From Escherichia phage EC_OE_11, in the sequence record OQ108497.1: a stretch of 64,000 nt of DNA, one strand, 5' to 3'. Each line of letters opens with the position of its first letter. The first letter of the stretch is position 1. Below, in pieces: positions 35,372-48,445 of this stretch. The notes below the pieces were generated by a model. The model saw only the letters and a list, made by a program, of their open reading frames with translations. It did not search any database and was not told where the DNA came from. A program made the translations under genes and the position numbers.

Positions 35372-35585
35372 TATTTTGAAAATTTTTACTTTTATAAAAA
35401 GGGGTGTGGGTTTCATGTACGGAAATCCACCCTCTGAATAATATATCCAGAGTAAATATTATTCTGTACTCTGTTAATAAAGTATTTAATTTGTTTGTTG
35501 GACTATGGTATCTGATCTTTAAAAGGCATACTATCTCTTAACTACTATTTATAACAGAACAGTAAAATCATTTTTATAAAAAGGA

Positions 35586-35790
35586 CAAAATTATTTAAAG
35601 TTTTTACAGATTTTTGGATACAAATTTTGAAAATGAAAAGTTCAAGTTTGGTCAAAATTATTTAAAGTTTTTGTACGTATTTCTATCCAGATTTTGAAAA
35701 TGAAAACTTCAATTTTTTAAAAATTCCCCAGTTTATTTAAAGTTTTTTTGCCTTTTTCCGTAGAAAAATCAAAAATGAAAAGTTCAATTT
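35586..35790. repeat. 3 tandem copies of about 67-bp AT-rich unit
   Basis: Each unit has AAAATTATTTAAAGTTTTT and ATTTTGAAAATGAAAAGTTCAA. Confidence 0.7.
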
Positions 35791-35811
35791 CGTGTTTTTA
35801 TAGGTGTGCGT

Positions 35812-35925
35812 ATGATAATCATTCTCATTTGTAAATGAGAATCATTATCATTTAATTATGTAAGTGATAATCATTCTCAGTAAGAGAATGAGAATCATTA
35901 GCAAATGAGAATTTTTCTCATTTAG
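35812..35925. promoter_or_regulatory. cluster of Fur-box-like motifs (GATAATCATTCTCATT / AATGAGAATCATTATC)
   Basis: At least 5 units in both orientations resembling Fur consensus GATAATGATAATCATTATC. Confidence 0.5.
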
Positions 35926-35929
35926 AGAA

Positions 35930-36480
35930 TAACGCGCAGGGGTGGTGTTTGTCTCGCGCTCCCGTGTCCCTCGCCATACAATAAGAATAGCATAACCAAC
36001 AACAAAAGCAAGCGATTATTTTTATCTTTACATTTCTTTACAAATTTATTTTAGACGAGCTACCGGCGATCAACCTTCCAACCAGTGCCCCTGGTATGTT
36101 AGCCCCGCCTTTACGCCGTGGGGGTGGCGCTTCCTCTTCTGTATGTAAAACAGTATAAGCCCGATCCCTGGGCTTGTCAAGATTATTTTTTGTTTTCTTG
36201 CCAGGAAAGGACACCTAACCAAAAATACATATCGCCCCGCGCCCCTGGCGGGATCTTGCTTTCCCCGCCGCCACTGCAAGCCCATAAATAACCATCAGCG
36301 AACGGATCAAAATGTTCTATCTCTTCCACCTTATGATCGCCCAGGTTGAGAACGGTTTCAACCTTTAAGCCCGTTGCGCTTGCTACCTGGTGCACCGTGC
36401 CGCCTTGCCAGCCCAATGAGTGCATGAGATGTAAAGGAGTATTTGTCATGGTATCGCCCTTTCTTTGATGTGCGCCCTGG
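35930..36480. other. GC-rich compositional island inside AT-rich non-coding hub
   Basis: Visibly GC-rich versus flanks; only weak ORFs. Confidence 0.5.
36183..36449 (-). CDS. hypothetical protein (88 aa) within GC-rich island; possibly acquired
   Basis: ATG 36449 with AAAGGGCG SD-like; atypical codon composition. Confidence 0.3.
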   Translation of the reverse strand: MTNTPLHLMHSLGWQGGTVHQVASATGLKVETVLNLGDHKVEEIEHFDPFADGYLWACSGGGESKIPPGARGDMYFWLGVLSWQENKK

Positions 36481-36714
36481 TTGGCGCGGTAGAAAGATAA
36501 TAGCCGTTTCCTTTATAGATAGCAAGCAAAAAGAAATGAAAAAAAGATTAAAAAATGGTTGACGTTCCTCACCTGGTAGCGTAGTATTCATCTTGTCGAG
36601 GGGGGCAAGGCACAACGACAATAAACAATAGGCGGGTGCAATGCAGGACGGGCAAAGGTGAGGATCTCCACAATCCACCGTCACAATAACATTACTTATA
36701 AAAGGTTGATAACG

Positions 36715-36810
36715 ATGATCAAGAAAGAAAACAGCTTGACGGTTGGAACGATTAACGCTATCATTCTAGCCGTTCCATTTTGGATTGTAGTAGCGGTTGT
36801 TATTTTCTAA
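36715..36810 (+). CDS. small membrane peptide (31 aa), speculative
   Basis: ATG 36715; single hydrophobic helix; weak SD. Confidence 0.25.
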   Translation: MIKKENSLTVGTINAIILAVPFWIVVAVVIF

Positions 36811-36819
36811 AAAATATTC

Positions 36820-36878
36820 TTGACAACGTTTTTTAATCTGATAAGATGTATCACATAGGGCGGCAATAGTGCCGCTCA
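36820..36878 (+). promoter_or_regulatory. promoter + 5'-leader stem-loop cassette (PeSL-like, type B)
   Basis: TTGACA-16nt-TAAGAT then GCGGC-aatagt-GCCGC hairpin, SD, ATG 36900. Confidence 0.55.
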
Positions 36879-36899
36879 TAACAGAAGAGAGAAATAATC

Positions 36900-37172
36900 A
36901 TGGCATCATATAGCGCATCAATGATCGTAACGGGCATGACTGGTAAACCTATGCGCGGTGGCGGATCTTTCGCTAACATCAATATTGATGGGCGTTTATC
37001 CCTGGATGCAGCGATCACCGTGGCACGGGAAACATTTAAAAAAGAATGTAATTTCAATAAACAAGATTATCTCGGCTTCGTTATTGAAAAAACCGCGCGC
37101 TTTGTTGATTATAAAAGCCCGAAAATGATCGACACTACACTAAAAGCGCAAGATGTAGCATTTTTGCTTTAA
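36900..37172 (+). CDS. hypothetical protein
   Basis: 90 aa. Confidence 0.55.
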   Translation: MASYSASMIVTGMTGKPMRGGGSFANINIDGRLSLDAAITVARETFKKECNFNKQDYLGFVIEKTARFVDYKSPKMIDTTLKAQDVAFLL

Positions 37173-37175
37173 GGC

Positions 37176-37235
37176 TTGACACTGAAAAATAATTTAGTAA
37201 TATATACCACATAGGGCGGGAAATGGTTTCCCGCC
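37176..37235 (+). promoter_or_regulatory. promoter + stem-loop cassette (type A: GGGCGGGaaatggtttCCCGCC)
   Basis: TTGACA-16nt-TAATAT then 22-nt hairpin. Confidence 0.6.
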
Positions 37236-37257
37236 AAATCAAAGAAAGGGTAACACA

Positions 37258-37620
37258 ATGAGCAAGCAAATCAATACTATCATGTTAAACCTGGTATCTT
37301 TCCGCGATGACGTGAAAAATCTTTCGCGTGATGCAGTGGATGCACGGATCGAAAGCTATCGCACACAGATCGCGACATTACCGTTAAAACGTGATCAACA
37401 TGCCGCTAATATGATGCTTGATGCTATGATTAAAAAGATGATTCAATGTGATCTTACCCTGGCTTATGAATATGCTGGCGATCTTTTTGTAACGTATAAT
37501 AAACCCGTTCCAGGTATGAGCACCACGGAAGAATTGCATGCCTTAAATCTGCGACAAGATGCATGGGATAACATGCGCCGTGTTATGGTATGGGTAGAAA
37601 GCGGTAAAATTTACGAATAA
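37258..37620 (+). CDS. hypothetical protein
   Basis: 120 aa. Confidence 0.55.
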   Translation: MSKQINTIMLNLVSFRDDVKNLSRDAVDARIESYRTQIATLPLKRDQHAANMMLDAMIKKMIQCDLTLAYEYAGDLFVTYNKPVPGMSTTEELHALNLRQDAWDNMRRVMVWVESGKIYE

Positions 37621-37626
37621 AAACGG

Positions 37627-37680
37627 TTGACATTGCACGAAAACCTGATAAGCTATCTTAAAGCGGGAATTGTTCCCGCT
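37627..37680 (+). promoter_or_regulatory. promoter + stem-loop cassette (variant AGCGGGaattgttCCCGCT)
   Basis: TTGACA-16nt-TAAGCT then hairpin. Confidence 0.55.
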
Positions 37681-37698
37681 TACATAGGATAAAACTTT

Positions 37699-37845
37699 AT
37701 GAAACAATATGTAATGAGTATCCACACCAAAAACGGCGCTACTGTTACGACTCCGGCACGGTTTGCACTTGTAAACCGTTGCAAGAGACTAAAACGAGAG
37801 TTAAAAAATAACCGTGCAACGGGCTTTAAACGCTGGGGAGGATAA
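37699..37845 (+). CDS. small basic protein (48 aa), not in ORF track
   Basis: ATG 37699 downstream of cassette. Confidence 0.45.
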   Translation: MKQYVMSIHTKNGATVTTPARFALVNRCKRLKRELKNNRATGFKRWGG

Positions 37846-37847
37846 TC

Positions 37848-38108
37848 TTGTTTTTTCTAAAAGTTTGTGATAATGTGATCGCTTTTGAACATGCTACAAC
37901 GTTCGACCTGGCGAGATACGCTATCAGGTTTAAAGATAATGTTTATCCCCGTGCTGGCGGCGGTTACACTATTTTTAATCACCGTAACGCTCAATTAACG
38001 GATATAACTAATCCAGATCCTGGAGTGTATCGCATAGGCTGGCTACCGTCAAAAGACGCTGCAAGCATGTTTAAGGTGTGCAAACTACTAACAGAAGAGG
38101 CGAACTAA
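37848..38108 (+). CDS. hypothetical protein (TTG start as in ORF track; GTG at 37875 alternative)
   Basis: GGAGG SD 7 nt upstream of TTG. Confidence 0.45.
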   Translation: MFFLKVCDNVIAFEHATTFDLARYAIRFKDNVYPRAGGGYTIFNHRNAQLTDITNPDPGVYRIGWLPSKDAASMFKVCKLLTEEAN

Positions 38109-38109
38109 C

Positions 38110-38664
38110 ATGGGGCGTGAATATGTGATCCAGTCCTGGGTAAAGCATGATGCTAATGATCCGCGCATAATACCAGATGACATGATCGATCACATGGTAG
38201 GGTATAGCGGGGAGCAGATAGGAAATCGAGCGGCAAAGAGCAACGGCAACACCAGGACGCGATCCGTTCGCCCTGGATGGCTGGCGAATGGTAACGCTGA
38301 CATTGCAAGCGCCGCAGATCCAAGCGATGACGCTAAAAATAATCCCTTATACAGCATTGATCCGGCTTTTAAGGTGTTAGAAGAGTATCCCGCTAAATTA
38401 GCCGCACTAGATAAGGCATACGAAGAAAAGCGCATGGCATGGACTGTATACAACACCGCTAAAATGGTGCTAGATGCAAAATTGATTAAAGCCCAGGAGA
38501 AGATCAATAAACTTGTTACCATAGCGCAAGAGGAAGACCAGGACTACCAGGAGGAAGCGGAAGAAATCATGCCTACTCTGGAAGAGGAAGAGATCCAGCC
38601 ATACATGCCGACGGAAGAGGAAAAAAGACAAGCCCTAAAAAATTATGAAAATTGCATTGTGTAA
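38110..38664 (+). CDS. hypothetical protein with acidic C-terminal tail
   Basis: 184 aa, coupled. Confidence 0.55.
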   Translation: MGREYVIQSWVKHDANDPRIIPDDMIDHMVGYSGEQIGNRAAKSNGNTRTRSVRPGWLANGNADIASAADPSDDAKNNPLYSIDPAFKVLEEYPAKLAALDKAYEEKRMAWTVYNTAKMVLDAKLIKAQEKINKLVTIAQEEDQDYQEEAEEIMPTLEEEEIQPYMPTEEEKRQALKNYENCIV

Positions 38665-38667
38665 GGC

Positions 38668-38724
38668 TTGACATAGGCAAACAAGCCCCGTAATATGTAC
38701 CACATAAAGCGGGGCAACGCCCCA
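38668..38724 (+). promoter_or_regulatory. promoter + stem-loop cassette (variant)
   Basis: TTGACA-17nt-TAATAT then GGGGC-aac-GCCCC hairpin. Confidence 0.5.
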
Positions 38725-38745
38725 TAAGGTGAAATAAAAAATCAC

Positions 38746-38773
38746 TTGACACCTGAAATCAGTAAGCTATAAT
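38746..38773 (+). promoter_or_regulatory. sigma70-like promoter (no stem-loop)
   Basis: TTGACA-16nt-TATAAT. Confidence 0.55.
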
Positions 38774-38810
38774 GCTTATATAGATTGAAACATTACTAAG
38801 GAATAAAAGC

Positions 38811-38990
38811 ATGGCTATTATTGCAAAGACTGAGATCGTAGGTTTAGATTCTATCATCCTGGCATATGAGGAAGCTATAGAAATGTATGTGGTTTCCTAT
38901 GGTGATTATATCCGTGAATATAAATCTATTGATCTAGCTTTTGAATGCTATATTCGCCAGGTCAATAAAGCATATGATGATTATCGTTAA
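38811..38990 (+). CDS. small hypothetical protein (59 aa), not in ORF track
   Basis: ATG 38811 downstream of tandem promoters. Confidence 0.45.
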   Translation: MAIIAKTEIVGLDSIILAYEEAIEMYVVSYGDYIREYKSIDLAFECYIRQVNKAYDDYR

Positions 38991-39009
38991 AAGTTTTAGT
39001 CTTGTGCTA

Positions 39010-39038
39010 TTGACAACGAACGATAGTACAAGCATAAT
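39010..39038 (+). promoter_or_regulatory. sigma70-like promoter
   Basis: TTGACA-17nt-CATAAT. Confidence 0.5.
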
Positions 39039-39085
39039 AACTTTTATCGGGAATACTCCTAACTAATCAAAAGAGATTAAAGACT

Positions 39086-39451
39086 ATGGCTAAAAATATC
39101 AATGTTTCTGCTTATGCTACCCTGGCTAACACTGCTAAAATTGAACTATCCAGCATTGAAGCGGTACATATTAGCGCCCGTCGCTGGTTTCAAAAGTCTT
39201 ATGGTAATACTTATTTCTCTTTGATGGTTGACGTTGAGATCGGCGGTAAACTGATCGAAGTAGTTAACGTTCCGTTTCAATATGGTTATGGGGATCATTT
39301 TGATACCGTTGCCCTAGAAGAGTTTAGCAAGGTTATCAACCTGGAAGGTAAAGACTTTTCAAATTATGCTTACCTTTCCCGCTTTTGCCGTGATAATGGG
39401 ATCGCTGTATACAGTCATGCAAGCGATGTAAAACGTAAAAAAGATTTATAA
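39086..39451 (+). CDS. hypothetical protein
   Basis: 121 aa. Confidence 0.55.
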   Translation: MAKNINVSAYATLANTAKIELSSIEAVHISARRWFQKSYGNTYFSLMVDVEIGGKLIEVVNVPFQYGYGDHFDTVALEEFSKVINLEGKDFSNYAYLSRFCRDNGIAVYSHASDVKRKKDL

Positions 39452-39457
39452 AAAGCA

Positions 39458-39517
39458 TTGACAGCACGAATAAAAAGCATATAATACTTATATCGAGAGC
39501 GGGAATAGTTCCCGCCT
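39458..39517 (+). promoter_or_regulatory. promoter + stem-loop cassette (variant AGCGGGaatagttCCCGCC)
   Basis: TTGACA-16nt-TATAAT then hairpin. Confidence 0.6.
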
Positions 39518-39539
39518 CACTGAAAAAGAGATTAACATC

Positions 39540-39779
39540 ATGGCTAAATCTAAAATGTACAACGGTCACAAAAATAAAACTCATTGGAATGTAAGCCTTT
39601 GGATTAATAATGATGAATCGTTATACTTATACGCTGTAGGTTTAATAAATGAGTGCGGCAATAAAGATAAAGCGGCGGATCTGATGTGCTACAGATTAAA
39701 ACAGGATGGAATCACTCATACACCTGATGGTTTCAAGTATAGTAAAACTGCAATCCGTGCCGCTATGGTAGGAATGTAA
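39540..39779 (+). CDS. hypothetical protein
   Basis: 79 aa. Confidence 0.55.
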   Translation: MAKSKMYNGHKNKTHWNVSLWINNDESLYLYAVGLINECGNKDKAADLMCYRLKQDGITHTPDGFKYSKTAIRAAMVGM

Positions 39780-39788
39780 TAAAAGCAG

Positions 39789-39848
39789 TTGACAACGTTT
39801 TTTAATCTGGTATAGTTTATCGCATAGGGCGGGAAATGGTTTCCCGCC
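39789..39848 (+). promoter_or_regulatory. promoter + stem-loop cassette (type A)
   Basis: TTGACA-16nt-TATAGT then GGGCGGGaaatggtttCCCGCC. Confidence 0.6.
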
Positions 39849-39870
39849 AAATCAAAGAAAGGTTATCATT

Positions 39871-40098
39871 ATGGCTATCGTTATTGTTCGCGTATCCGGC
39901 ACGGTTGGAATCTCCCAGGTAGTAGCAGTTATCACCGAGAAGAAAGGGGATGATCTTCACTCCTCATTGAATAGCTGGGCGGTCGCTAACTTTGGGCAAT
40001 GGTCGAGCGTTGAGTACATCGAATCCTACCAGGTGCCAACGATTAGCCTGACCGATCTCAACGTTGATCGTCTGTTATGCCTGGATCAATTAAACTAA
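39871..40098 (+). CDS. hypothetical protein
   Basis: 75 aa. Confidence 0.55.
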   Translation: MAIVIVRVSGTVGISQVVAVITEKKGDDLHSSLNSWAVANFGQWSSVEYIESYQVPTISLTDLNVDRLLCLDQLN

Positions 40099-40106
40099 AA
40101 ATAATA

Positions 40107-40164
40107 TTGACAAGACAACTAAAATTAGTAAAATGTAATTCATAGGGCGGCAATAGTGCCGCCC
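40107..40164 (+). promoter_or_regulatory. promoter + stem-loop cassette (type B)
   Basis: TTGACA-16nt-TAAAAT then GGGCGGC-aatagt-GCCGCCC. Confidence 0.6.
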
Positions 40165-40185
40165 CTAGTAAGAGAGATTATCAAA

Positions 40186-40401
40186 ATGGCTAATATCCGC
40201 ACCTTGTTAAAAAATGCAAAGCAAGTTTTATTTTCAGATGACGAGTATTTCAACAAAGACATTACAGGCGTGAAAAATTTAAAAGACGTGAAGGATGTTA
40301 TCGGTATCCGTGGATCTTTACGTAAAGGTGACATATACGGTAACAAGGTGCAATATAAACTGTCAAAAGATTATGATTTTACTTTGACAATTATTTCATA
40401 A
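40186..40401 (+). CDS. hypothetical protein (71 aa)
   Basis: Start moved to ATG 40186 (MANIRTLL). Confidence 0.5.
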   Translation: MANIRTLLKNAKQVLFSDDEYFNKDITGVKNLKDVKDVIGIRGSLRKGDIYGNKVQYKLSKDYDFTLTIIS

Positions 40402-40407
40402 AACTAC

Positions 40408-40470
40408 TTGTAAACCTGGTAAAATAAAGTAAACTATATTCATCAAGGCGGTGGAATAGCCCACCGCCTA
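40408..40470 (+). promoter_or_regulatory. promoter-like + stem-loop cassette (variant GGCGGTGGaatagCCCACCGCC)
   Basis: TTGTAA -35-like, long hairpin, then SD and ATG 40493. Confidence 0.45.
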
Positions 40471-40492
40471 ACAAAGAGAAGAGGAAAATATC

Positions 40493-40663
40493 ATGATCAC
40501 TTTCGCTACCCGTGAAGCCGCTCGCAACGTTGCACGTAAAGTTAACGCCGCAAACCTGGGCGCTACGCTTAAAGCCCCGGTGAAAGATGAATCAGGAAAA
40601 TGGATCTTTCCTGGTCTGCGTCACGCTGATAAGCTGGGAACATTAACGTTAAAAAATAAATAA
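40493..40663 (+). CDS. small hypothetical protein (56 aa), not in ORF track
   Basis: ATG 40493 with GAGGAAAA SD-like. Confidence 0.45.
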   Translation: MITFATREAARNVARKVNAANLGATLKAPVKDESGKWIFPGLRHADKLGTLTLKNK

Positions 40664-40670
40664 TATCCGC

Positions 40671-40729
40671 TTGACAGTAGCATCATTTATAAGTAAAGTA
40701 ACAACAACGGCGGGAAATGGTTTCCCGCC
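40671..40729 (+). promoter_or_regulatory. promoter + stem-loop cassette (type A)
   Basis: TTGACA, -10-like, GGCGGGaaatggtttCCCGCC. Confidence 0.55.
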
Positions 40730-40749
40730 ATCAATAAAGAGATAAGATT

Positions 40750-41109
40750 ATGAAATCAGTAAAAGCAATTAAAACTTACATTGTGTCGGCTATTTCTTTT
40801 GATGGTACTACAACCGAAAAAGAAAAAATCACCGAACTGATGCGCCGTTTTAACTCTGAATACTGGTATCAATCTAATCGTGATCGTTATAATAACAATA
40901 TGGTACAAGCTGTTAAAAGCTGGTTGCAAGGTTTACCGTCAGATATCAATATCGCTTTTAATTATAACGAGATCGATCAATTATTAATTGAATGGAAGTA
41001 CATAAAAGAAACAAGCAAAGAAACAACCGTTACCCGTGAGCGGGAAAATTATTGGTTATATATTGCAAGCATGATCGTAACTTTGGCAAAATATCATAAC
41101 GTAGCGTAA
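40750..41109 (+). CDS. hypothetical protein
   Basis: 119 aa. Confidence 0.55.
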   Translation: MKSVKAIKTYIVSAISFDGTTTEKEKITELMRRFNSEYWYQSNRDRYNNNMVQAVKSWLQGLPSDINIAFNYNEIDQLLIEWKYIKETSKETTVTRERENYWLYIASMIVTLAKYHNVA

Positions 41110-41123
41110 TCGAGAGGAAAAAC

Positions 41124-41261
41124 ATGAACGCATCACAGCAGATCGAAAAATTCAACCGCAACAAAGCGCGTAAAGATTGGAACGAAGAGATCACCAAGAA
41201 AGGCGACAAGCGGAACAAAACAAAGAGAGATCGCAGCAGCAAAAGATACTGGAACGAATAA
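41124..41261 (+). CDS. small basic protein (45 aa), not in ORF track
   Basis: ATG 41124 with GAGAGG SD; K/R-rich. Confidence 0.4.
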   Translation: MNASQQIEKFNRNKARKDWNEEITKKGDKRNKTKRDRSSKRYWNE

Positions 41262-41263
41262 CA

Positions 41264-41290
41264 AAAAAGGGCGCAATAAGCGCCCTTTTA
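41264..41290 (+). terminator. intrinsic terminator
   Basis: GGGCGC-aataa-GCGCCC + TTTT. Confidence 0.75.
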
Positions 41291-41379
41291 GCTTATATAG
41301 GGGCTTGTTAGTTATAGGCAATGGTAACGCCAGGATAAGCCTATAAACCACGTTAGACAGCTTTACAGGAGCTTTAAAA

Positions 41380-41562
41380 ATGAAATTAGACGAAATAAGC
41401 AAGGCACTAGCCCAGGGGCAAAGGTTATGCGCCCGATATCGTGATCAATATGGCTTTATAACTAGCGGCGTGATCCTGGGGATTGAAGACAATAAAATTT
41501 TTATTGACACGTGGAAAAACGTTGTATATAGTGACAATATAATCTCAATAAAACATATATGA
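41380..41562 (+). CDS. hypothetical protein
   Basis: 60 aa. Confidence 0.5.
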   Translation: MKLDEISKALAQGQRLCARYRDQYGFITSGVILGIEDNKIFIDTWKNVVYSDNIISIKHI

Positions 41563-41570
41563 GGCAAGAA

Positions 41571-41972
41571 ATGAAAAAATTATTGATCGCTGGTTTACTC
41601 TCTTTTGGTATGGTTGGAACATCTAGCGCGGCGATATCCTCCACAGTAGCAGAATTAAGCGCCGTTGATGCAATGGAAAACGTCATGATCATTAATAATG
41701 CGATCCCCGATGAAATCATGGAGGATTCACACATGATCGCTTATGGTGCTATTACACAACTGACGGCAAAAATAGATAAATCTATTGTTAATGGCTTAAA
41801 TGAAGATGTACCATGCGAAATTATTACCAGTGTGCTCACTACTCAAAATTTTACGCCGTGGTTAAAAAGTATTCAAAAAGTACACAGTACAGCCGCAGAT
41901 CGTAGCAATGAAAAACTAGTGTCAGCACTTGCAACGTATACCCTAGCAAAATGTACTGAAATAAAAGATTGA
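41571..41972 (+). CDS. secreted protein (signal peptide)
   Basis: MKKLLIAGLLSFGMVGTSSA signal; start at 41571 with GAGG SD (ORF-track start 41559 also possible). Confidence 0.5.
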   Translation: MKKLLIAGLLSFGMVGTSSAAISSTVAELSAVDAMENVMIINNAIPDEIMEDSHMIAYGAITQLTAKIDKSIVNGLNEDVPCEIITSVLTTQNFTPWLKSIQKVHSTAADRSNEKLVSALATYTLAKCTEIKD

Positions 41973-42019
41973 CAACATAGAAAGCACGTTATAAGATACA
42001 CACAACAAAGGAGAACTAC

Positions 42020-42322
42020 ATGAACGGCATAGCTAAAACGTTTTTTCTTTTTTCTGGTGTAAATGATCCATCAATAAAAGTCGATAGCGTAAAAGAAAAC
42101 AATACTATCACCGCTAAATTATTTCAAGATGAAACAAATAACGTGCTAATCATTAATCTTAAAGAAATAACAAAAGGTTATTATACTATTGCTTACCATG
42201 CGATCTATAATGCTGATACTAGTGAGGAAGTGCAAACAAGCAACAACGAAAGCGCGGCGCTACCTGGTGATCTGGTGCTGGGCGTTATCAGTTTAATTGT
42301 CAATGATTTTTTTAAGGAGTAA
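42020..42322 (+). CDS. hypothetical protein
   Basis: 100 aa. Confidence 0.5.
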   Translation: MNGIAKTFFLFSGVNDPSIKVDSVKENNTITAKLFQDETNNVLIINLKEITKGYYTIAYHAIYNADTSEEVQTSNNESAALPGDLVLGVISLIVNDFFKE

Positions 42323-42326
42323 AACC

Positions 42327-42422
42327 ATGCCCTATTTACATTTATTTTTCGGTATCTTATTGACAGGATCTTTTTTCTTCTGTATGCTTGTTTCTATTGT
42401 AAACCACGTTTTAAGACATTAA
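42327..42422 (+). CDS. tiny membrane peptide (31 aa), speculative
   Basis: AAGGAG SD 7 nt upstream of ATG 42327. Confidence 0.35.
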   Translation: MPYLHLFFGILLTGSFFFCMLVSIVNHVLRH

Positions 42423-42431
42423 GGAAACAGC

Positions 42432-42551
42432 ATGAAAATTATTCCCGTACAGTATAGCGTAATAAATCCAGCATATGAGGAAGGAAGGAAAACAAGCATG
42501 GCTTTATGTTGTATTGCTACTATAACCATGTTGTTATACATTGTGTTTTAA
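42432..42551 (+). CDS. small membrane peptide (39 aa), speculative
   Basis: ATG 42432; hydrophobic C-terminus. Confidence 0.25.
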   Translation: MKIIPVQYSVINPAYEEGRKTSMALCCIATITMLLYIVF

Positions 42552-42580
42552 TAGGTTTTATAGTTGTACGCTTTAAAGGC

Positions 42581-42608
42581 TTGACAATTTTTTGTTATGC
42601 TTTAAAAT
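42581..42608 (+). promoter_or_regulatory. sigma70-like promoter
   Basis: TTGACA-16nt-TAAAAT. Confidence 0.5.
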
Positions 42609-42651
42609 ATATCTTGAAAACGGCAAAGGCCGCAAACAAAAGGGTAAAATT

Positions 42652-42975
42652 ATGAAATCTGTGATCGGTGTTTATTTGGATAACTCTGATTTTTTCTATC
42701 ATCGCGCTCGTTTCCTTGATGCGATTGAAATGATAGAATCAGGCTTTAAAGAGTATCGCCTTGCACATGATGACCTGGAAGCATTACAGGACAATAGTGT
42801 TTTTACATTGCAAGCTAAAGCACTATGCAAAAGCCGGATCGACATTGCAAGCAAAAAGATAGAACGCGGCATGTCCTGGTTGCGCACCGCAGAAATCAAC
42901 ATGGGGCAATGGTACGGCGAAAACTTAGAAAATAAACACACTTTTGTAAATGTAGAAAATATTAAAGATTATTGA
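42652..42975 (+). CDS. hypothetical protein (107 aa)
   Basis: Start moved to ATG 42652 downstream of promoter. Confidence 0.5.
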   Translation: MKSVIGVYLDNSDFFYHRARFLDAIEMIESGFKEYRLAHDDLEALQDNSVFTLQAKALCKSRIDIASKKIERGMSWLRTAEINMGQWYGENLENKHTFVNVENIKDY

Positions 42976-43037
42976 TTGACAGCACACCTGATAAGTAATA
43001 TATTGTATCTCATAGAGCGGGGAAATGGTTTCCCCGC
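42976..43037 (+). promoter_or_regulatory. promoter + stem-loop cassette (type A variant)
   Basis: TTGACA, TAATAT-like -10, AGCGGGGaaatggtttCCCCGCC. Confidence 0.55.
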
Positions 43038-43057
43038 CTTAACAGAAGAGATAAGAT

Positions 43058-43342
43058 ATGAAGATCACAAAAGCACTTTCCAACTATGCAGCACGTCGCG
43101 GCTTATGTTTAACCGTTGAAAACCTGGGGAAAGAAGATTTTTTGTGCTTTTGGGAGCTTGAGAATGATAATGAGTGGATCTTCTCTTATTCTATCTGCGA
43201 AGATCAAAACGGTTGTTTATTAACCTGGCGCGGTAATATCTATTTACCGCAAGAAATCAAAGAGGAACTACCAGGCACGATCATGACTGAGAAACAGCTT
43301 AAGGAAGTGATCAATTTTGTAGGGCAAAACATTAAAAAATAA
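43058..43342 (+). CDS. hypothetical protein
   Basis: 94 aa. Confidence 0.55.
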   Translation: MKITKALSNYAARRGLCLTVENLGKEDFLCFWELENDNEWIFSYSICEDQNGCLLTWRGNIYLPQEIKEELPGTIMTEKQLKEVINFVGQNIKK

Positions 43343-43343
43343 T

Positions 43344-43404
43344 TTGACACTAGGCAAACAACGTAGTAAAGTTTATCACATAGGGCGGGAAATGGTTTCC
43401 CGCT
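43344..43404 (+). promoter_or_regulatory. promoter + stem-loop cassette (type A)
   Basis: TTGACA then GGGCGGGaaatggtttCCCGCT. Confidence 0.55.
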
Positions 43405-43426
43405 CACAGTAGAAGAGAAACAAATC

Positions 43427-43597
43427 ATGATCCCAACTATGTTTTATGTATCGCGCAAAGGTCACAATATTTTTTGGTCTGAAGATTTAAATGAAGCCAT
43501 GACGTTTGCCCGTGATCGTGTTGCTATTGGTGGCGTTAATATCACTGTAACCGATGAAAATGGCATTGAATACTATAACGGCGACGATGAAGAGTAA
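43427..43597 (+). CDS. small hypothetical protein (56 aa), not in ORF track
   Basis: ATG 43427 downstream of cassette. Confidence 0.45.
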   Translation: MIPTMFYVSRKGHNIFWSEDLNEAMTFARDRVAIGGVNITVTDENGIEYYNGDDEE

Positions 43598-43604
43598 TTA
43601 ATGA

Positions 43605-43630
43605 GGCGGGGGGAGTATTCCCCGCCGTCA
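43605..43630 (+). promoter_or_regulatory. orphan GC stem-loop without obvious promoter
   Basis: GGCGGGGGG-agtatt-CCCCGCC between coupled genes. Confidence 0.4.
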
Positions 43631-43645
43631 ATAAAGAGATAAATC

Positions 43646-43915
43646 ATGAAAATATCATTAGACGTTGCAATCAAGGCCATCGAATCCGGTTACATCCTGG
43701 TAAAAGATGATAAGGCTAAAACCGTGCACCACGTTAACAAGGAAACAGGCGAAAGCATGATCACATATAAAGCCGCCTACTTTCTCCAATCAGTAGCAGA
43801 TCCGCGCGTACAACGCCAGGTTACAGCGGCTATTGCTAAAAAATTATGTGCTTTACAGGGCACAAGTTTTAACGAGATCGCCCCGTGTTTTGACTGGTCG
43901 AGCTTGAAAAAATAG
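43646..43915 (+). CDS. hypothetical protein
   Basis: 89 aa. Confidence 0.55.
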   Translation: MKISLDVAIKAIESGYILVKDDKAKTVHHVNKETGESMITYKAAYFLQSVADPRVQRQVTAAIAKKLCALQGTSFNEIAPCFDWSSLKK

Positions 43916-43916
43916 T

Positions 43917-43972
43917 TTGACAACAATTATAAATCGGGTAGAATGTATTTCGTAGGGCGGCAATAGTGCCGC
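43917..43972 (+). promoter_or_regulatory. promoter + stem-loop cassette (type B)
   Basis: TTGACA-16nt-TAGAAT then GGGCGGCaatagtGCCGC. Confidence 0.6.
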
Positions 43973-43995
43973 TCACAACTAAAAGAGAAATCATC

Positions 43996-44190
43996 ATGGC
44001 GCTTAAAAAATTAACAAGCAATACTCGTTGGGATGAAATCGACGGGGAAGTATACATTTTCGCCCGTAAACCAGGTGATCAAAAATGGTCAAAGGCTTTT
44101 ACTTGCCACCCTGCAACAATAGATCTAATAAAAAGTAAAGGTTTACGTGAAGCAGTAGCAAGGAGCTTACTGATCCCTTATAAAAAATAG
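43996..44190 (+). CDS. hypothetical protein (64 aa)
   Basis: Start moved to ATG 43996. Confidence 0.5.
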   Translation: MALKKLTSNTRWDEIDGEVYIFARKPGDQKWSKAFTCHPATIDLIKSKGLREAVARSLLIPYKK

Positions 44191-44191
44191 T

Positions 44192-44250
44192 TTGACAATA
44201 CGCGGTTATCTGGTAAAGTGTACGACATAGGGCGGGGCAATAAGGCAACG
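44192..44250 (+). promoter_or_regulatory. promoter + imperfect stem-loop cassette
   Basis: TTGACA-16nt-TAAAGT then GGGCG...CGCCC. Confidence 0.5.
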
Positions 44251-44271
44251 CCCACTAATGAGGGTAAAATC

Positions 44272-44376
44272 ATGTTAGAGAAAATTTTCACGGTTGTAGT
44301 AGTGGGCCTGGCGTTATCGGTTGGAGTGATTGCAACTATGGCTAACATGATCCTATCTTCCCACGGTATTGGATAA
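44272..44376 (+). CDS. small membrane peptide (34 aa), not in ORF track
   Basis: ATG 44272; single TM helix. Confidence 0.4.
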   Translation: MLEKIFTVVVVGLALSVGVIATMANMILSSHGIG

Positions 44377-44386
44377 GGTGAATCAA

Positions 44387-44602
44387 ATGATCACGAATAA
44401 GACAGGTAAAACAGAATTTTTACGCGGCTTGCAAATAGGTAAACCTGAAATCTGGCATTGCACTAAAACACCACGTGACGAAATGAAAGATTTCACCGCT
44501 ACTTTACAACGTGTTAAAATATCTATCACACAGAAAAAAGCCTTGTTAGTAGTAGAAAACGAGATCCCGCAAACCATTATTATTGTTGAGCGTACAGCAT
44601 GA
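44387..44602 (+). CDS. hypothetical protein (71 aa)
   Basis: ATG 44387 with AAGGTG SD; ORF track used upstream TTG. Confidence 0.5.
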   Translation: MITNKTGKTEFLRGLQIGKPEIWHCTKTPRDEMKDFTATLQRVKISITQKKALLVVENEIPQTIIIVERTA

Positions 44603-44985
44603 AAACAGAAATCATTATTGAAATCATCAACGGTTATAAAGAAGCCTTTATTTTTGCTGAATCCGCCAGGGATCATGAAGGTAATTTTATTGATAACTTA
44701 GACGATTATGATTTTTCAGATCAAGCCCATCAGCGGATTATACGTGACGTGGCGGCGTTTTGTGATGCCAATGATGCCGCTATCTCTGAGGCAATGAGCG
44801 ACGGCGCAACAGCCAACCAGATCGGGAATGATTTACATTTTACCCGTAATAGTCACGGCGTAGGCTTTTGGGATCGCCCTGAAATATACACTACTAACAC
44901 CGCCAACCGCTTAACTAATGCAGCTAAATTGATGCCATCGGTGCATGCTTACATTGGTGAAGATAATTTGATTTATATTGAATAA
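44599..44985 (+). CDS. hypothetical protein
   Basis: 128 aa, ATGA coupling. Confidence 0.55.
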   Translation: MKTEIIIEIINGYKEAFIFAESARDHEGNFIDNLDDYDFSDQAHQRIIRDVAAFCDANDAAISEAMSDGATANQIGNDLHFTRNSHGVGFWDRPEIYTTNTANRLTNAAKLMPSVHAYIGEDNLIYIE

Positions 44986-44991
44986 AAAGTA

Positions 44992-45050
44992 TTGACACCG
45001 ATCCCCAATATGGTATGATTTACCACGTAGGCGGGAAATGGTTTCCCGCC
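44992..45050 (+). promoter_or_regulatory. promoter + stem-loop cassette (type A)
   Basis: TTGACA-16nt-TGGTATGAT (extended -10) then GGCGGGaaatggtttCCCGCC. Confidence 0.6.
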
Positions 45051-45073
45051 AGGTAATCAAAAAGGTAAATACT

Positions 45074-45463
45074 ATGCGCAACCTGGTTTCTGTTTCTAAC
45101 GTTGAAAAATTTCAATCCTTGCAGGGTATCGTTAACAACGTAGCGCCTTTTTTAGTCAATGGCTTGATTGCAAAGATGAAGAATAAACATCATGCGGCAT
45201 GGTCTGCTTACTGCTTTGATAATGATGAAAAAGCGGCTGAAATGATGTTAAATATGCTGTTAGATAGTGTAGAATCATCTTTACCGGAAAACATCGCAGA
45301 AGAGATCACCTATCGTTATAATATGGCGATCACTTACCAGGAAGTGGCGCAATTTAATATGATGGATGATGACGAACAACAGGATCAGGAAATTTTCTGG
45401 GAGTATGCAGATCGTCAATCAGCTTTTGATGAAAAATTAGCGATGTATTATAACGAATATTAA
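45074..45463 (+). CDS. hypothetical protein (129 aa)
   Basis: Start moved to ATG 45074. Confidence 0.5.
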   Translation: MRNLVSVSNVEKFQSLQGIVNNVAPFLVNGLIAKMKNKHHAAWSAYCFDNDEKAAEMMLNMLLDSVESSLPENIAEEITYRYNMAITYQEVAQFNMMDDDEQQDQEIFWEYADRQSAFDEKLAMYYNEY

Positions 45464-45472
45464 TACACGGTA

Positions 45473-45504
45473 AAAGAAAGGGGCGCACTAAGCGCCCTTT
45501 TTTG
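45473..45504 (+). terminator. intrinsic terminator
   Basis: GGGCGC-actaa-GCGCCC + TTTTTT. Confidence 0.8.
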
Positions 45505-45849
45505 TATTCTTTTTTTCACGATGGAAACAACACGTAAAGAATAGGCGTAAAGGTGGCGTAAAACCATCTAAAACCGACTGTAACCGCTTAAACAAGGTAG
45601 GAATGATTAATCACCTTACCAGGATGAAAAAGCTGTTAGAGAGCTATTCAGAGCGTTTAAAGCACATAGGAAATAATTTGCTTTTTATCTTGCCTTTTAT
45701 CCTGCTTTTGATTATTATTATGGAACGGGCGGCACCTGGGGACAGGGGAAGATAATCACCGGAAGATCCCGCTATATATTAATAGCTAATACCTATTAAA
45801 CAACAAAACATCAAAGGTATAAACTATCAAATCTTTACAATTCTACCTA

Positions 45850-45878
45850 TTGACACCGGATCACGCTTACACTATTAT
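45850..45878 (+). promoter_or_regulatory. sigma70-like promoter
   Basis: TTGACA-17nt-TATTAT. Confidence 0.55.
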
Positions 45879-45924
45879 TTATCACGTAGGGCAAATCATT
45901 TTAAACGGTAAACGAGGAATCACC

Positions 45925-46308
45925 ATGAGCAATATCATCAACCTGGCAGCGACTGTAAACGGTAAAGACTTTAACGGCGCTGTAGACCGTGATCCTATGT
46001 GGTGCTTGTCAGTGTTTAAAGGCGATCTGGTTGAAGTTAGAACAACCGAAGGTTATAGCGACGATTATAAATGCGAGATCCATTTACATAACTGGTACAC
46101 GGGGAAAACTTATGCGCTGAATCACGCGTTTATCGGGAAAATTGAATATCGCGAGATGATCGACGAAGAAACGGGGCAAGATTTTAGCGATTATGTTTAT
46201 ATCCGTTCAGAAACATTAGCCGAACGTTTGATCGAGAAAATGAAAGCAAAAAATAAAATTAATTTATCTCATTGGATTGATATAACAAACGATCCTGCTT
46301 ATCAGTAA
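45925..46308 (+). CDS. hypothetical protein (127 aa)
   Basis: Start moved to ATG 45925. Confidence 0.5.
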   Translation: MSNIINLAATVNGKDFNGAVDRDPMWCLSVFKGDLVEVRTTEGYSDDYKCEIHLHNWYTGKTYALNHAFIGKIEYREMIDEETGQDFSDYVYIRSETLAERLIEKMKAKNKINLSHWIDITNDPAYQ

Positions 46309-46360: not shown

Positions 46361-46554
46361 AGATGATAGCTTTTACCTATCAAAAACGTTCACCGAAAAA
46401 AGTGAATAGATCGCGGTATCGAGCTAATCAAGGAGCAGATGAACAACCATACCATGAAGATCATAAGGCGCTTACAACGTGTTTTAGACCGCTTATTTTT
46501 AATTTCTCAATGTAACTATCGGGCAAAAACAGCCTTTTTCTTGTCTTTCCTCTT

Positions 46555-46572
46555 AAATGATAATCATTCTTA
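46555..46572. promoter_or_regulatory. Fur-box-like motif AAATGATAATCATTCTTA
   Basis: Matches GATAATGATAATCATTATC-type consensus. Confidence 0.45.
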
Positions 46573-46610: not shown

Positions 46611-46630
46611 AATAATGATAATCATTCTTA
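46611..46630. promoter_or_regulatory. Fur-box-like motif AATAATGATAATCATTCTTA
   Basis: Second copy about 55 bp downstream. Confidence 0.45.
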
Positions 46631-47165: not shown

Positions 47166-47511
47166 TAATGTTTGGAACATTGGCTATAATATAAGCTACA
47201 TATAATAAGCTATTCAATAATAAACATCGTGAATAATGACATTGAAATGAATAATGACACTGATGATCATAATGCGCCACCTTCCAGGGGGCGCTATGTG
47301 AACACAAAGAAATCTTTCTTGTCAAGAAAAATATCACCATTATTGCGCAAAATTATTTATATCTGAATAGATGATTTTTCATACTATTGCCCCTATACAC
47401 TACCTCATTTGTTGCAATGTATCCCCCTATTTGTTGAGCCTATTCTCTTAAAAGCGCAATAAATCAGAATTATCTTGATTTTTAGTGGATTTTATAGTAT
47501 AGAAAATATGC

Positions 47512-47529
47512 AAATGATAATCATTATCA
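47512..47529. promoter_or_regulatory. Fur-box-like motif AAATGATAATCATTATCA
   Basis: Near-consensus Fur-box-like palindrome. Confidence 0.45.
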
Positions 47530-47694
47530 GCTATCTTCCACGGGTGGCACTATTTCACGCCAGATCATTTCATTTGGCAAGGTGTATATAGATGTTTAGA
47601 AATGCCAAGCCATTGATTTACTTAGAATTTATCTGTTTTGTTGTGAGTAGTGCCTTTCTTGCTCAGAAAATAATCAAAAGTCTTATAAGTCATT

Positions 47695-47730
47695 GAATGA
47701 TAATGCAAATGATAATAATTCTCATTGATA
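47695..47730. promoter_or_regulatory. tandem Fur-box-like motifs
   Basis: GAATGATAATGCAAATGATAATAATTCTCATTGA. Confidence 0.45.
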
Positions 47731-47846
47731 TTTGAGGGGGACGGTCGGCAGAAATCGGGGGGCGCTGAAAATCGCGTTAAGCACCTCTCGCAAGCGAGCA
47801 GTATTTTGCGGCAAGTTATTGATATTATTGGCTTTACGCTTATGGA

Positions 47847-47954
47847 AAGGGGGTGTGTCGAAATAAATCGGGTATACCGGAAAATTTTTGTGGCATAGAT
47901 ATTTATTTGTCTATATTATGTACAAAGGGGTGTGTTAAAAATATTAGGTATATA
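47847..47954 (+). repeat. two copies of about 30-bp direct repeat (AAAGGGGTGTGT..AAATA..GGTATA), possible promoter elements
   Basis: 47847-47876 and 47924-47954, about 75 bp apart, upstream of first gene of 48-60 kb cluster. Confidence 0.5.
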
Positions 47955-48085
47955 TAGAATAATTGATAGGGAAATCCTATACTAATTCCTCTATTAATGA
48001 TGCTTCTAGGTTGCTGTTCTTGTAATAGATGAAAAGACGCTATATGATGTGTGGCATGAAACGTAAATTTATAAAGGAGTCTGAT

Positions 48086-48445
48086 ATGTGTGTTCCTCTT
48101 AGCAGTCCACTGCTGTTAGAATTTTACAAAGCATGGATGGAAGATCATTCCTCAATGCATCGTGAGAATGTTGGTTTGTGTAATTGCCTTATGGATTACC
48201 TGGCAACCACTATGTCAAAGAAAAAACCTACGGAAGAAGATATAGAATATTTCAAGATGGTTCGTAGCAAAACGCTGGAAGAGATGAAACTGCAATTCAC
48301 GTGTGCTGGGCTATGCTCCTTCCTACCCTTTAATTATGATCTTCTGTGTTATGAAGATGAAGGTAAGACACATTCTTGCCATACCAACCCAAAGAGATTG
48401 CAGTGGGTGAAAGATCGTATTGCCGATTCATGCAAGGGTGTGTAG
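48086..48445 (+). CDS. paralog family member A (conserved-Cys family)
   Basis: ATG 48086 with AAAGGAG SD; shared LLEFYKAW, GLC.CL, FTCAGL, LPFN.D, RLQWVKDRI. Confidence 0.55.
   Translation: MCVPLSSPLLLEFYKAWMEDHSSMHRENVGLCNCLMDYLATTMSKKKPTEEDIEYFKMVRSKTLEEMKLQFTCAGLCSFLPFNYDLLCYEDEGKTHSCHTNPKRLQWVKDRIADSCKGV

What the first reader, a model, noticed from the sequence alone, without database searches (positions are those of the whole stretch)
47847..47954. Two 30-bp direct repeats upstream of the 48-60 kb gene block
AAAGGGGTGTGT..AAATA..GGTATA occurs twice about 75 bp apart immediately upstream of the first gene of a long co-directional cluster with no sigma70-like promoters inside it. This could be a promoter or activator site for a distinct expression class.
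Basis: seen in the sequence. Interest (0 to 1): 0.4.

Follow-up and report, generated by a model that had tools for sequence, protein, structure and literature searches.

The report
Paired promoter-like repeats beside phage genome end
Two related ~32-bp sequence units lie just inside the physical left end of a phi92-like E. coli phage genome, ahead of its first operon; they most likely belong to weak, factor-assisted promoters for that operon, which would be a modest and unproven regulatory feature.

Summary
The repeats exist, but they are a bipartite motif and not clean 30-bp repeats. The motif is GGGGTGTGT, then 11-12 nt, then GGTATA. Copies lie at 47846-47877 and 47923-47954, 77 bp apart, with 22/32 identity and one gap.

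The window is a phi92-like phage (Justusliebigvirus). By homology to phi92's annotated 343-bp terminal repeat, the DTR is window 47437-47779. The units therefore lie 67-175 bp inside the left genome end and 132 bp upstream of gene 1 (ATG 48086).

The motif occurs nowhere else in the window or in a complete 146-kb relative, so it is not the signature of a genome-wide promoter class. Units are conserved in position and orientation in three Stephanstirmvirinae clades. In all ten instances a -10-like hexamer ends 30-32 nt after the G-run. By sigma-70 criteria the units are weak, and a better conserved promoter (TTGTAA-17-TATGAT, 48020-48048) heads the cluster.

My best reading, at about 0.45 confidence, is tandem weak or factor-dependent promoter modules for the left-end operon. 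The rivals are packaging accessory sites, an origin, and an RNA leader element.

Side finding: a 13-kb E. coli thrW island copies the DTR boundary and two phi92-type tail genes, which makes it a candidate satellite.

The parts
47437..47779 (.). Equivalent of the phi92 343-bp direct terminal repeat (DTR). The physical left end of the genome is at 47437 and the right DTR boundary at 47779|47780.
   Evidence: phi92 FR775895.2 annotates DTR-L at 1-343 and DTR-R at 148270-148612. The window stretch is 333/343 identical to it. The phi92 right end stops at ...AAAATCGCGTTA.
47754..47799 (+). Conserved word spanning the DTR right boundary (ATCGGGGGGCGCTGAAAATCGCGTTA|AGCACCTCTCGCAAGCGAGC). A similar GTTG|AGCC.. 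word sits at the left boundary, 47433-47445.
   Evidence: Seen. It is conserved in all three clades and copied at 44/46 identity in an E. coli island.
47846..47877 (+). Repeat unit 1: G-box GGGGTGTGT 47850-47858 and GGTATA 47871-47876.
   Evidence: Conserved in the Klebsiella clade with both boxes, and in Phapecoctavirus with the G-box half only.
47880..47885 (+). -10-like hexamer GAAAAT of unit 1. It ends 31 nt after the G-run and starts an A4T5 tract (47881-47889).
47890..47917 (+). Moderate sigma-70-like site GTGGCA-16-TATATT between the two units.
   Evidence: 8.7 bits. It is not conserved in the other clades.
47923..47954 (+). Repeat unit 2: G-box GGGGTGTGT 47927-47935 and GGTATA 47947-47952.
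   Evidence: Window 47896-47988 is the only stretch of the intergenic region that BLAST aligns to Phapecoctavirus, at about 76% identity.
47955..47963 (+). Overlapping -10-like hexamers TAGAAT and AATAAT of unit 2. In relatives this is TGGGATAAT or TGGAATAAT, i.e. an extended -10.
   Evidence: RATAAT is invariant across clades 1 and 3.
48020..48048 (+). Best sigma-70-like promoter of the region, TTGTAA-17-TATGAT, 38 nt upstream of gene 1.
   Evidence: 9.8 bits, top 0.02% of window scores. The same TTGTAA-17-TATGAT/TAGGAT/TAAGAT arrangement is found in Schickermooser, ZCKP1 and phiWec179.
48086..48445 (+). First gene of the left-end cluster (119 aa, phrog_2510, unknown function). The cluster runs to about 60333.
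   Evidence: RBS AAGGAG at 48074-48079.

Best explanation
The two units are the upstream halves of two tandem, rightward promoter modules at the head of the left-end operon (48.1-60.3 kb) of a phi92-like phage. Each module consists of a G-rich box at about -43 to -35, a weak A-rich -35-like hexamer (TCGAAA or TTAAAA), GGTATA in the spacer, and a -10-like hexamer (GAAAAT; TAGAAT/AATAAT). Sigma-70 does not read the two best-conserved boxes and the -35 is poor. I therefore infer that the modules are weak on their own and are assisted or controlled by a DNA-binding factor that recognises the G-box and GGTATA. That factor could be a phage early protein or a host protein. This would make the operon a delayed class relative to the promoter-dense right-end early cluster. 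The anatomy, uniqueness, position and conservation are shown. Promoter activity, the existence of a factor and the timing are inferred.
For: The units have the same orientation as the roughly 37 downstream genes, and no ORF lies between them and gene 1. In 10 of 10 unit instances from three clades a hexamer with A at position 2 and T at position 6 ends 30-32 nt after the G-run, while the GGTATA offset varies from 14 to 17 nt or the box is absent. The block downstream of unit 2 keeps a usable -10 through sequence change: TAGAATAAT, TGGGATAAT, TGGAATAAT. In phiWec179, unit 2 is the best sigma-70-like site of its region (GTGTCA-17-TAGAAT, 9.9 bits). In the Klebsiella clade the second unit sits where the other clades have the gene-1 promoter and shares its TAGGAT -10. 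The neighbouring 36-46.5 kb cluster has about 25 strong TTGACA-16/17-TAnnnT promoters, mostly intergenic, whereas the head of the 48-60 kb cluster has none above 9.8 bits. The E. coli island that copies the DTR boundary does not copy the units, so they do not look like part of the terminus-recognition signal. The RNA fold of 47840-48090 is not better than shuffles, z = +0.8.
Against: Sigma-70 PWM scores are low: unit 2 scores 6.1-7.5 bits and unit 1 falls below the 14 best-scoring sites of the region, the weakest of which scored 5.05 bits. The most conserved bases are not promoter-reading positions. A better promoter at 48020-48048 could by itself serve the operon. The motif occurs at only this locus, so there is no independent second promoter to support an activator regulon. 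No candidate regulator was identified among the first ten gene products. The unit instances are homologous, so the conserved spacing may partly reflect common descent. The PWM frequencies were entered from memory of published compilations. No transcript data were found.
Confidence: 0.45

Rival explanations
1. The units are accessory binding sites for the packaging or terminus-forming machinery (cosB- or pac-like sites for a small terminase subunit). They would sit just inside the right boundary of the terminal repeat and help to position or license the cut at 47779|47780.
For: The units lie 67 and 144 bp from the DTR boundary. They are unique in the genome. They are direct repeats with an intrinsically bent-looking A4T5 tract between them. 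G-box 1 starts at +70/+71 from the boundary in both the E. coli and Klebsiella clades, despite divergence of the intervening sequence.
Against: In Phapecoctavirus the distance is different: I counted about +83 by eye, and unit 2 lies at +141 to +162. The island that carries a 44/46 copy of the boundary word lacks the units. Both DTR boundaries share a GTTR|AGC.C..CT word, but only the right one is followed by units. Nothing links the motif to a terminase.
Confidence: 0.2
2. The units are iteron-like sites of a replication origin next to the genome end, or promoters that prime replication, flanked by easily melted AT-rich DNA.
For: Each of the two direct repeats is followed by very AT-rich DNA. 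In the E. coli island, the copied boundary word is immediately followed by TATTTAT iterons, and the island encodes a replication-initiator-like protein about 3.7 kb away, separated from the iterons by small ORFs and an IS1. That shows termini and origins can be neighbours in this system.
Against: There are only two copies. No DnaA-box match was seen by eye and no initiator gene is adjacent. A better origin candidate exists at 35.57-35.80 kb, with three roughly 67-bp repeats beside a cluster of palindromes. GC-skew turns in the window follow transcription direction only.
Confidence: 0.1
3. The G-boxes act in RNA. AAAGGGGGUG is nearly complementary to the 16S anti-Shine-Dalgarno sequence. It could hold 30S subunits on a long untranslated leader transcribed from a promoter in the DTR (TTGGCA-17-TAGAAA, 47574-47602), protecting it from decay or Rho.
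For: The G-box differs from AAGGAGGTG by one G-for-A change (read). The same GGGGTG word is a genuine ribosome-binding site in unrelated metagenome hits. A third G-box at 35399 is followed after 8 nt by an ATG. A sigma-70-like site lies upstream in the DTR (8.7 bits; TTGACA-17-TAGACT in phi92).
Against: No start codon follows either unit in any clade. The conserved GGTATA box and the conserved -10-like spacing have no role in this model. There is no significant RNA structure.
Confidence: 0.1
4. The units have no specific function. They are a local duplication drifting in a noncoding, repeat-rich terminal region.
For: The 46.5-48.0 kb noncoding region is full of short repeat families. Identity between the two copies is only 69%.
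Against: The units are retained in three clades whose surrounding noncoding DNA is otherwise barely alignable. The block around unit 2 is the only part of the intergenic region that BLAST aligns between genera.
Confidence: 0.1

Closest known systems
Tandem early promoters A1, A2, A3 near the left end of phage T7 (from established knowledge, not tested here)
   Same: Several co-directional promoter-like modules, spaced roughly 80-130 bp apart, lie a few hundred bp from the physical left end, just inside a short terminal repeat, ahead of the first genes.
   Different: The T7 A promoters are strong canonical sigma-70 promoters. Here the repeated units score weakly (at most 7.5 bits), and their best-conserved boxes (GGGGTGTGT, GGTATA) are not sigma-70 elements.
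Activator-dependent phage middle or late promoters, such as T4 MotA-box middle promoters and P2 Ogr / Mu C-dependent promoters (from established knowledge)
   Same: Both have a poor -35, a usable -10, and a conserved extra box upstream of or overlapping the -35 region. Both sit at the head of a gene block that lacks the strong early-type promoters seen elsewhere in the genome.
   Different: Those boxes recur at many promoters per genome, whereas this one occurs at a single locus. The sequence does not resemble the MotA box or TGT-N12-ACA. No activator was identified.
Lambda cosB R-sites and other small-terminase binding repeats next to the cleavage site (from established knowledge)
   Same: Short repeated sites lie within about 200 bp on one side of the terminus-forming cut, are unique in the genome, and have bendable DNA between them.
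   Different: There is no evidence of terminase binding. The sites are absent from the island that copies the boundary word. Their distance to the boundary is not constant across genera.
rV5 putative late motif TggTAaAAtA (PMC3606486, read)
   Same: It is a GGTA-containing -10-region motif proposed for a related phage group, and a TGGTAAAATA-like word is enriched in this window (22 against 11 expected).
   Different: That motif is effectively an extended -10 (TGnTAAAAT) spread over many sites. The GGTATA(C/T) of the units lacks the final T of a -10 hexamer and is tied to a G-box found only here.

Membership tests
Sigma-70 (host RNA polymerase) promoter | -10 hexamer resembling TATAAT, with A at position 2 and T at position 6 | tested here: met
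   Unit 2 has TAGAAT at 47955-47960 and AATAAT at 47958-47963. Unit 1 has GAAAAT at 47880-47885, which is weak (4/6). A hexamer of this kind ends 30-32 nt after the G-run in 10/10 instances.
Sigma-70 (host RNA polymerase) promoter | -35 hexamer resembling TTGACA, 16-18 bp upstream of the -10 | tested here: inconclusive
   The candidates are TTAAAA (4/6), GTGTTA (3/6) and TCGAAA (4/6). PWM totals for unit 2 are 6.1-7.5 bits. Unit 1 is not among the 14 best-scoring sites of the region, the weakest of which scored 5.05 bits. Early promoters elsewhere in the window score 12-15 bits.
Sigma-70 (host RNA polymerase) promoter | A mapped transcription start site | not testable with these tools
   No transcriptome or primer-extension data for Stephanstirmvirinae were found. 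The phi92 genome paper is not held.
Activator-dependent promoter class (MotA-, Ogr- or C-type) | The same activator box recurs at several promoters of one temporal class | tested here: not met
   The bipartite motif occurs only at 47850 and 47927 in the window, and only at the homologous two sites in the complete 146,364-bp genome of A145. One isolated G-box without GGTATA lies at 35399.
Activator-dependent promoter class (MotA-, Ogr- or C-type) | A cognate DNA-binding activator encoded by the phage | tested here: inconclusive
   The first ten products of the cluster have no Pfam or PHROG function; the only hit is a weak, sub-threshold ProQ-C-like match. phi92 gp005 is annotated 'predicted transcription regulator', but nothing links it to the motif.
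Terminase recognition repeats (cosB- or pac-type) | Repeated sites adjacent to the terminus-forming cut and unique in the genome | tested here: met
   The units begin 67 and 144 bp right of the 47779|47780 boundary and are unique in the genome.
Terminase recognition repeats (cosB- or pac-type) | Co-inherited with the cut site by elements that borrow the packaging signal, and required for packaging | tested here: not met
   The thrW island copies 44/46 nt across the boundary but has no G-box or GGTATA unit. This is indirect, because whether the island is packaged through this word is not shown. The requirement for packaging cannot be tested here.
Iteron-type replication origin | Three or more iterons with an adjacent AT-rich unwinding element and an initiator gene | tested here: not met
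   There are only two copies and no adjacent initiator gene. A three-copy, roughly 67-bp repeat array lies elsewhere, at 35.57-35.80 kb.
Structured RNA element (Rfam families, put/nut-like) | Significant or conserved secondary structure, or a match to a curated family | tested here: not met
   There are no Rfam hits at gathering threshold in the window. The fold of 47840-48090 has z = +0.8 against shuffles.

The most novel reading that the evidence does not exclude
The G-box/GGTATA units are the two operator sites of a dedicated, still unidentified DNA-binding protein. This protein would act only at the genome's left end and couple the terminus region to the switch-on of the first, 12-kb operon. 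The units would form one terminal control region together with the adjacent DTR-boundary word and the Fur-box-like palindromes. Part of that region, the boundary word, is mimicked by a 13-kb integrative E. coli island carrying its own capsid, tape-measure and Dit-like genes. That island would then be a satellite of strictly lytic phi92-like phages.
Probability: 0.2. Interest if true: 0.65.

Novelty: new member of a known kind. Interest (0 to 1): 0.3.

Why it matters
If the units are factor-dependent promoters, they mark the control point of the first operon of phi92-like phages. That operon has about 37 genes, all ten examined of unknown function and probably involved in host takeover. These broad-host-range phages are popular therapy candidates, and I found no published transcription programme for them. 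Knowing that the site lies 67 bp from the terminal-repeat boundary also gives a precise, testable map of the cis-acting terminal region: the boundary word, the TTGAT box, the two units and the gene-1 promoter. That map is useful for engineering these phages. On its own the finding is a modest regulatory detail. The more consequential lead is the chromosomal island that copies the boundary word.

Tried and rejected
1. Genome-wide promoter class: rejected. Regex and mismatch searches of the window and of a complete relative find the bipartite motif only at this locus.

2. Structured RNA or a known RNA family: rejected. There are no Rfam hits or tRNAs and the fold is not significant.

3. Small ORF or translated leader: rejected. 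No start codon follows the SD-like G-box in any clade. The small CDSs annotated there in Eryne are not conserved.

4. Alternative host sigma factors (sigma-54, -32, -24, -28), CRP, DnaA, IHF and the MotA box were compared by eye only. None fitted. This is a weak test.

5. Minus-strand promoter: no convincing site.

6. Widening the phylogenetic footprint gave little. IMG/VR and metagenome scans with three patterns yielded only a few further members of the same three clades; the rest were chance hits. The genome-contig scan for the boundary word gave mostly chance hits, apart from island copies, one phage fragment and a possibly related word in Klebsiella oxytoca and K. michiganensis.

7. Literature: no transcription data or promoter description for phi92-like or phAPEC8-like phages was found. 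One search was wasted through a poor choice of minimum terms. The phi92 genome paper could not be opened.

8. The third G-box, at 35399: conservation could only be checked within Justusliebigvirus, so it is uninformative.

Full report
WHAT THE WINDOW IS

The 1.1 kb around the finding is 95-99% identical to about 50 Escherichia phages of the phi92 group (Justusliebigvirus, Stephanstirmvirinae). The closest is phage Eryne. There is no plasmid match. Strand composition shows a long block of +-strand genes from about 30 to 60 kb. This block is interrupted by about 1.5 kb of repeat-rich noncoding DNA at 46.5-48.0 kb.

WHERE THE FINDING LIES

phi92 (FR775895.2) is annotated with 343-bp direct terminal repeats at both ends.
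- Window 47700 aligns to phi92 position 264.
- Window 47437-47779 is 333/343 identical to the phi92 DTR.
- The last 26 nt of the phi92 record equal window 47754-47779.

The window therefore runs across the junction: right end, one DTR copy, left end. The two repeats start 67 and 144 bp to the right of the DTR boundary (47779|47780). That places them about 410-520 bp from the physical left end and 132 bp upstream of the first gene (RBS AAGGAG, ATG 48086).

THE OBSERVATION

- Unit 1 is 47846-47877, AAAGGGGGTGTGTCGAAATAAATCGGGTATAC.
- Unit 2 is 47923-47954, CAAAGGGGTGTGTTAAAAATATTAGGTATATA.
- They are 77 bp apart and match at 22/32 positions with one gap.
- Two boxes are shared: GGGGTGTGT and, 12 or 11 nt later, GGTATA.
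- The bipartite pattern has 2 matches in 64 kb against 0.02 expected. That pattern was defined after seeing the data.
- It occurs at no other place in the window, and only at the two homologous places in the complete 146,364-bp genome of the relative A145.
- The bare G-box (GGGGTGTG) occurs four times in that genome. Three are in the terminal noncoding region and one is at the start of another large noncoding region, equivalent to window 35399.

CONSERVATION

I compared three clades:
- E. coli phi92-like: window, phi92, A145 and three metagenomic contigs.
- Klebsiella: phi1_175008, FKP3 and two contigs.
- Phapecoctavirus: Schickermooser, ZCKP1, phiWec179 and three contigs.

All clades keep units in the same orientation between the DTR boundary and gene 1, although the surrounding DNA is barely alignable.
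- The block around unit 2 (47896-47988) is the only part of the intergenic region that BLAST aligns between genera.
- The Klebsiella clade has unit 1 with both boxes. Its second unit lies directly at the gene-1 promoter position.
- Phapecoctavirus keeps unit 2 intact. Of unit 1 it keeps only the G-box half.

This conservation, more than the within-window statistics, shows that the units are functional.

PROMOTER TEST

A simple sigma-70 PWM was used; the base frequencies were entered from memory of published compilations, so scores are rough. It rates the units as weak: unit 2 scores 6.1-7.5 bits, and unit 1 falls below the 14 best-scoring sites of the region, the weakest of which scored 5.05 bits.

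The best site in the whole terminal region is TTGTAA-17-TATGAT at 48020-48048 (9.8 bits), 38 nt before gene 1. The same arrangement is present in Phapecoctavirus.

Three observations still favour a promoter-module reading.
1. In all ten unit instances, a hexamer with A at position 2 and T at position 6 ends 30-32 nt after the G-run, while the GGTATA offset varies from 14 to 17 nt or the box is missing.
2. The -10 region after unit 2 changes in sequence but always keeps a usable element: TAGAATAAT, TGGGATAAT or TGGAATAAT. The last two are extended -10 forms.
3. In phiWec179, unit 2 is the best-scoring site of its region (GTGTCA-17-TAGAAT, 9.9 bits).

In this register the G-box lies at about -43 to -35 and GGTATA lies in the spacer. 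Sigma-70 reads neither, which is why I infer an additional binding factor.

CONTEXT OF THE TWO GENE CLUSTERS

- The right-end cluster (36-46.5 kb) carries about 25 strong TTGACA-16/17-TAnnnT sites of 11-15 bits, mostly in intergenic gaps just upstream of small genes.
- The left-end cluster (48.1-60.3 kb) is tightly packed and its head has nothing above 9.8 bits.
- The left-end cluster nevertheless contains 25 sites of at least 9 bits against 12.7 in shuffles, including five TTGACA-17 sites.

The impression that this operon is organised differently from the neighbouring early region is right. The first ten products are all of unknown function, and three of them are paralogues in phrog_2510.

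ALTERNATIVES

Packaging. The location next to the terminus-forming cut, the uniqueness in the genome and the bendable A4T5 tract between the units all fit cosB-like accessory sites. G-box 1 is at +70/+71 from the boundary in two clades. Against this, the distance differs in Phapecoctavirus. Only one of the two DTR boundaries has units, although both share a GTTR|AGC.C..CT word. A chromosomal island that copies the boundary word lacks the units.

Origin. There are only two copies and no initiator gene nearby. A better candidate repeat array lies at 35.57-35.80 kb.

RNA. There is no Rfam hit and no significant fold. The G-box is strikingly Shine-Dalgarno-like, but no start codon follows it.

I put the promoter-module reading at 0.45, packaging at 0.2, and origin, RNA leader and no function at 0.1 each.

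SIDE OBSERVATION: A CANDIDATE SATELLITE

I searched for the boundary word to collect relatives. That search also returned a 13-kb element present in 547 of 5,426 complete E. coli genomes, integrated next to tRNA-Thr (thrW). Its content is:
- An integrase.
- A replication-initiator-like protein.
- A major capsid protein.
- A tape-measure protein and a Dit-like tail protein. These two are syntenic with, and 32-69% and 62% identical to, the corresponding genes of phi92-like phages.
- A 46-nt stretch that is 44/46 identical to window 47754-47799, spanning the DTR right boundary, immediately followed by TATTTAT iterons.

The only phage matches of the island's 1-kb noncoding region are Justusliebigvirus and two records of a related Klebsiella phage. 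I found no paper connecting satellites with these phages. This looks like a satellite, or a parasitic or defensive island, of strictly lytic phi92-like phages. It is not part of the finding and is only partly followed up.

SIDE OBSERVATION: FUR-BOX-LIKE PALINDROMES

A palindrome, AATGATAATCATT(C/A)T, is strongly enriched in the window: 20 matches against 2.1 expected. Sites cluster at 35.81-35.90 kb, at 46.55 and 46.61 kb, and inside the DTR at 47.51 and 47.71 kb. The copy at 47511-47529 matches the E. coli Fur consensus at about 16 of 19 positions, counted by eye.

VERDICT

They lie at the physical left end of the genome. They are most plausibly the conserved upstream parts of two weak, factor-assisted promoter modules for the first operon. 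They are not the signature of a genome-wide expression class. Function is inferred from anatomy only. Interest is modest at 0.3, and I class the finding as a new member of a known kind.

Noticed in passing
window 47754-47799; L052 (NZ_CP048609.1 3857491-3886490) about 2582-15600; L051; L035: A roughly 13-kb integrative element at thrW is present in 547 of 5,426 complete E. coli genomes. It carries a 44/46-nt copy of the phage's DTR right-boundary word next to TATTTAT iterons. It also carries an integrase, a replication-initiator-like gene, a major capsid gene, and tape-measure and Dit-like tail genes that are syntenic with and up to 62-69% identical to those of phi92-like phages. It is a candidate satellite of strictly lytic Stephanstirmvirinae. 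No literature link was found.
   Followed up: partly
window 47433-47445 and 47775-47795: Both edges of the terminal repeat carry a similar word in the same orientation: left ..TTGTTG|AGCCTATTCTCTT, right ..GCGTTA|AGCACCTCTCGCAA. In other genera the left word is GTTG|AGCA(C/A).TTCTCTTAAA. Each is followed about 30-40 nt later by a TTAT.TTGAT.TT box. This is a candidate recognition and cut signal for terminus formation.
   Followed up: partly
window 35811-35901, 46554-46570, 46612-46628, 47511-47527, 47708-47726: The Fur-box-like palindrome AATGATAATCATT(C/A)T is about ten-fold enriched (20 matches with at most 2 mismatches, against 2.1 expected). It is confined to the two large noncoding regions, including two sites inside the DTR. 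The copy at 47511-47529 fits the E. coli Fur consensus at about 16/19 by eye. These could be host Fur sites or operators of a phage regulator.
   Followed up: partly
window 35372-36440: A second large noncoding region begins with an isolated G-box (AAAAGGGGTGTGG at 35396-35408). It is followed by three roughly 67-bp direct repeats (about 35570-35800), a cluster of Fur-box-like palindromes, and a GC-richer stretch with a short minus-strand ORF. It is a possible origin or regulatory hub. It is conserved only within Justusliebigvirus.
   Followed up: partly
window 36500-46000, + strand: Nearly every small gene of the right-end cluster is preceded by a near-consensus sigma-70 promoter (TTGACA-16/17-TAnnnT, 11-15 bits, about 25 sites). 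This is a very promoter-dense, early-looking region, in contrast to the operon-like 48-60 kb cluster.
   Followed up: partly
window, both strands (e.g. 40417, 31107, 26633): A TGGTAAAATA-like word, which is rV5's proposed late motif and in effect an extended -10, is enriched: 22 matches with at most 1 mismatch against 11.3 expected.
   Followed up: no
L005 (Klebsiella phage FKP3, PP895363.1, record 1-2066): The deposited record contains the DTR twice, separated by only about 180 bp that include unit 1. This looks like an assembly artefact at the terminal repeat.
   Followed up: no
L009-L011 (MG065645.1 and sister records): Four 'Campylobacter phage' records (A150, A145, C3, A110a; flagged UNVERIFIED) are about 97% identical to E. 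coli phi92-like phages in this region. They are probably mislabelled as to host.
   Followed up: no
L181, L182 (Klebsiella oxytoca and K. michiganensis chromosomes): A 19-nt core of the boundary word (TCGCGTTAAGCACTTCTCGC) occurs in an otherwise unrelated context in two Klebsiella species. It could be an analogous island or chance.
   Followed up: no
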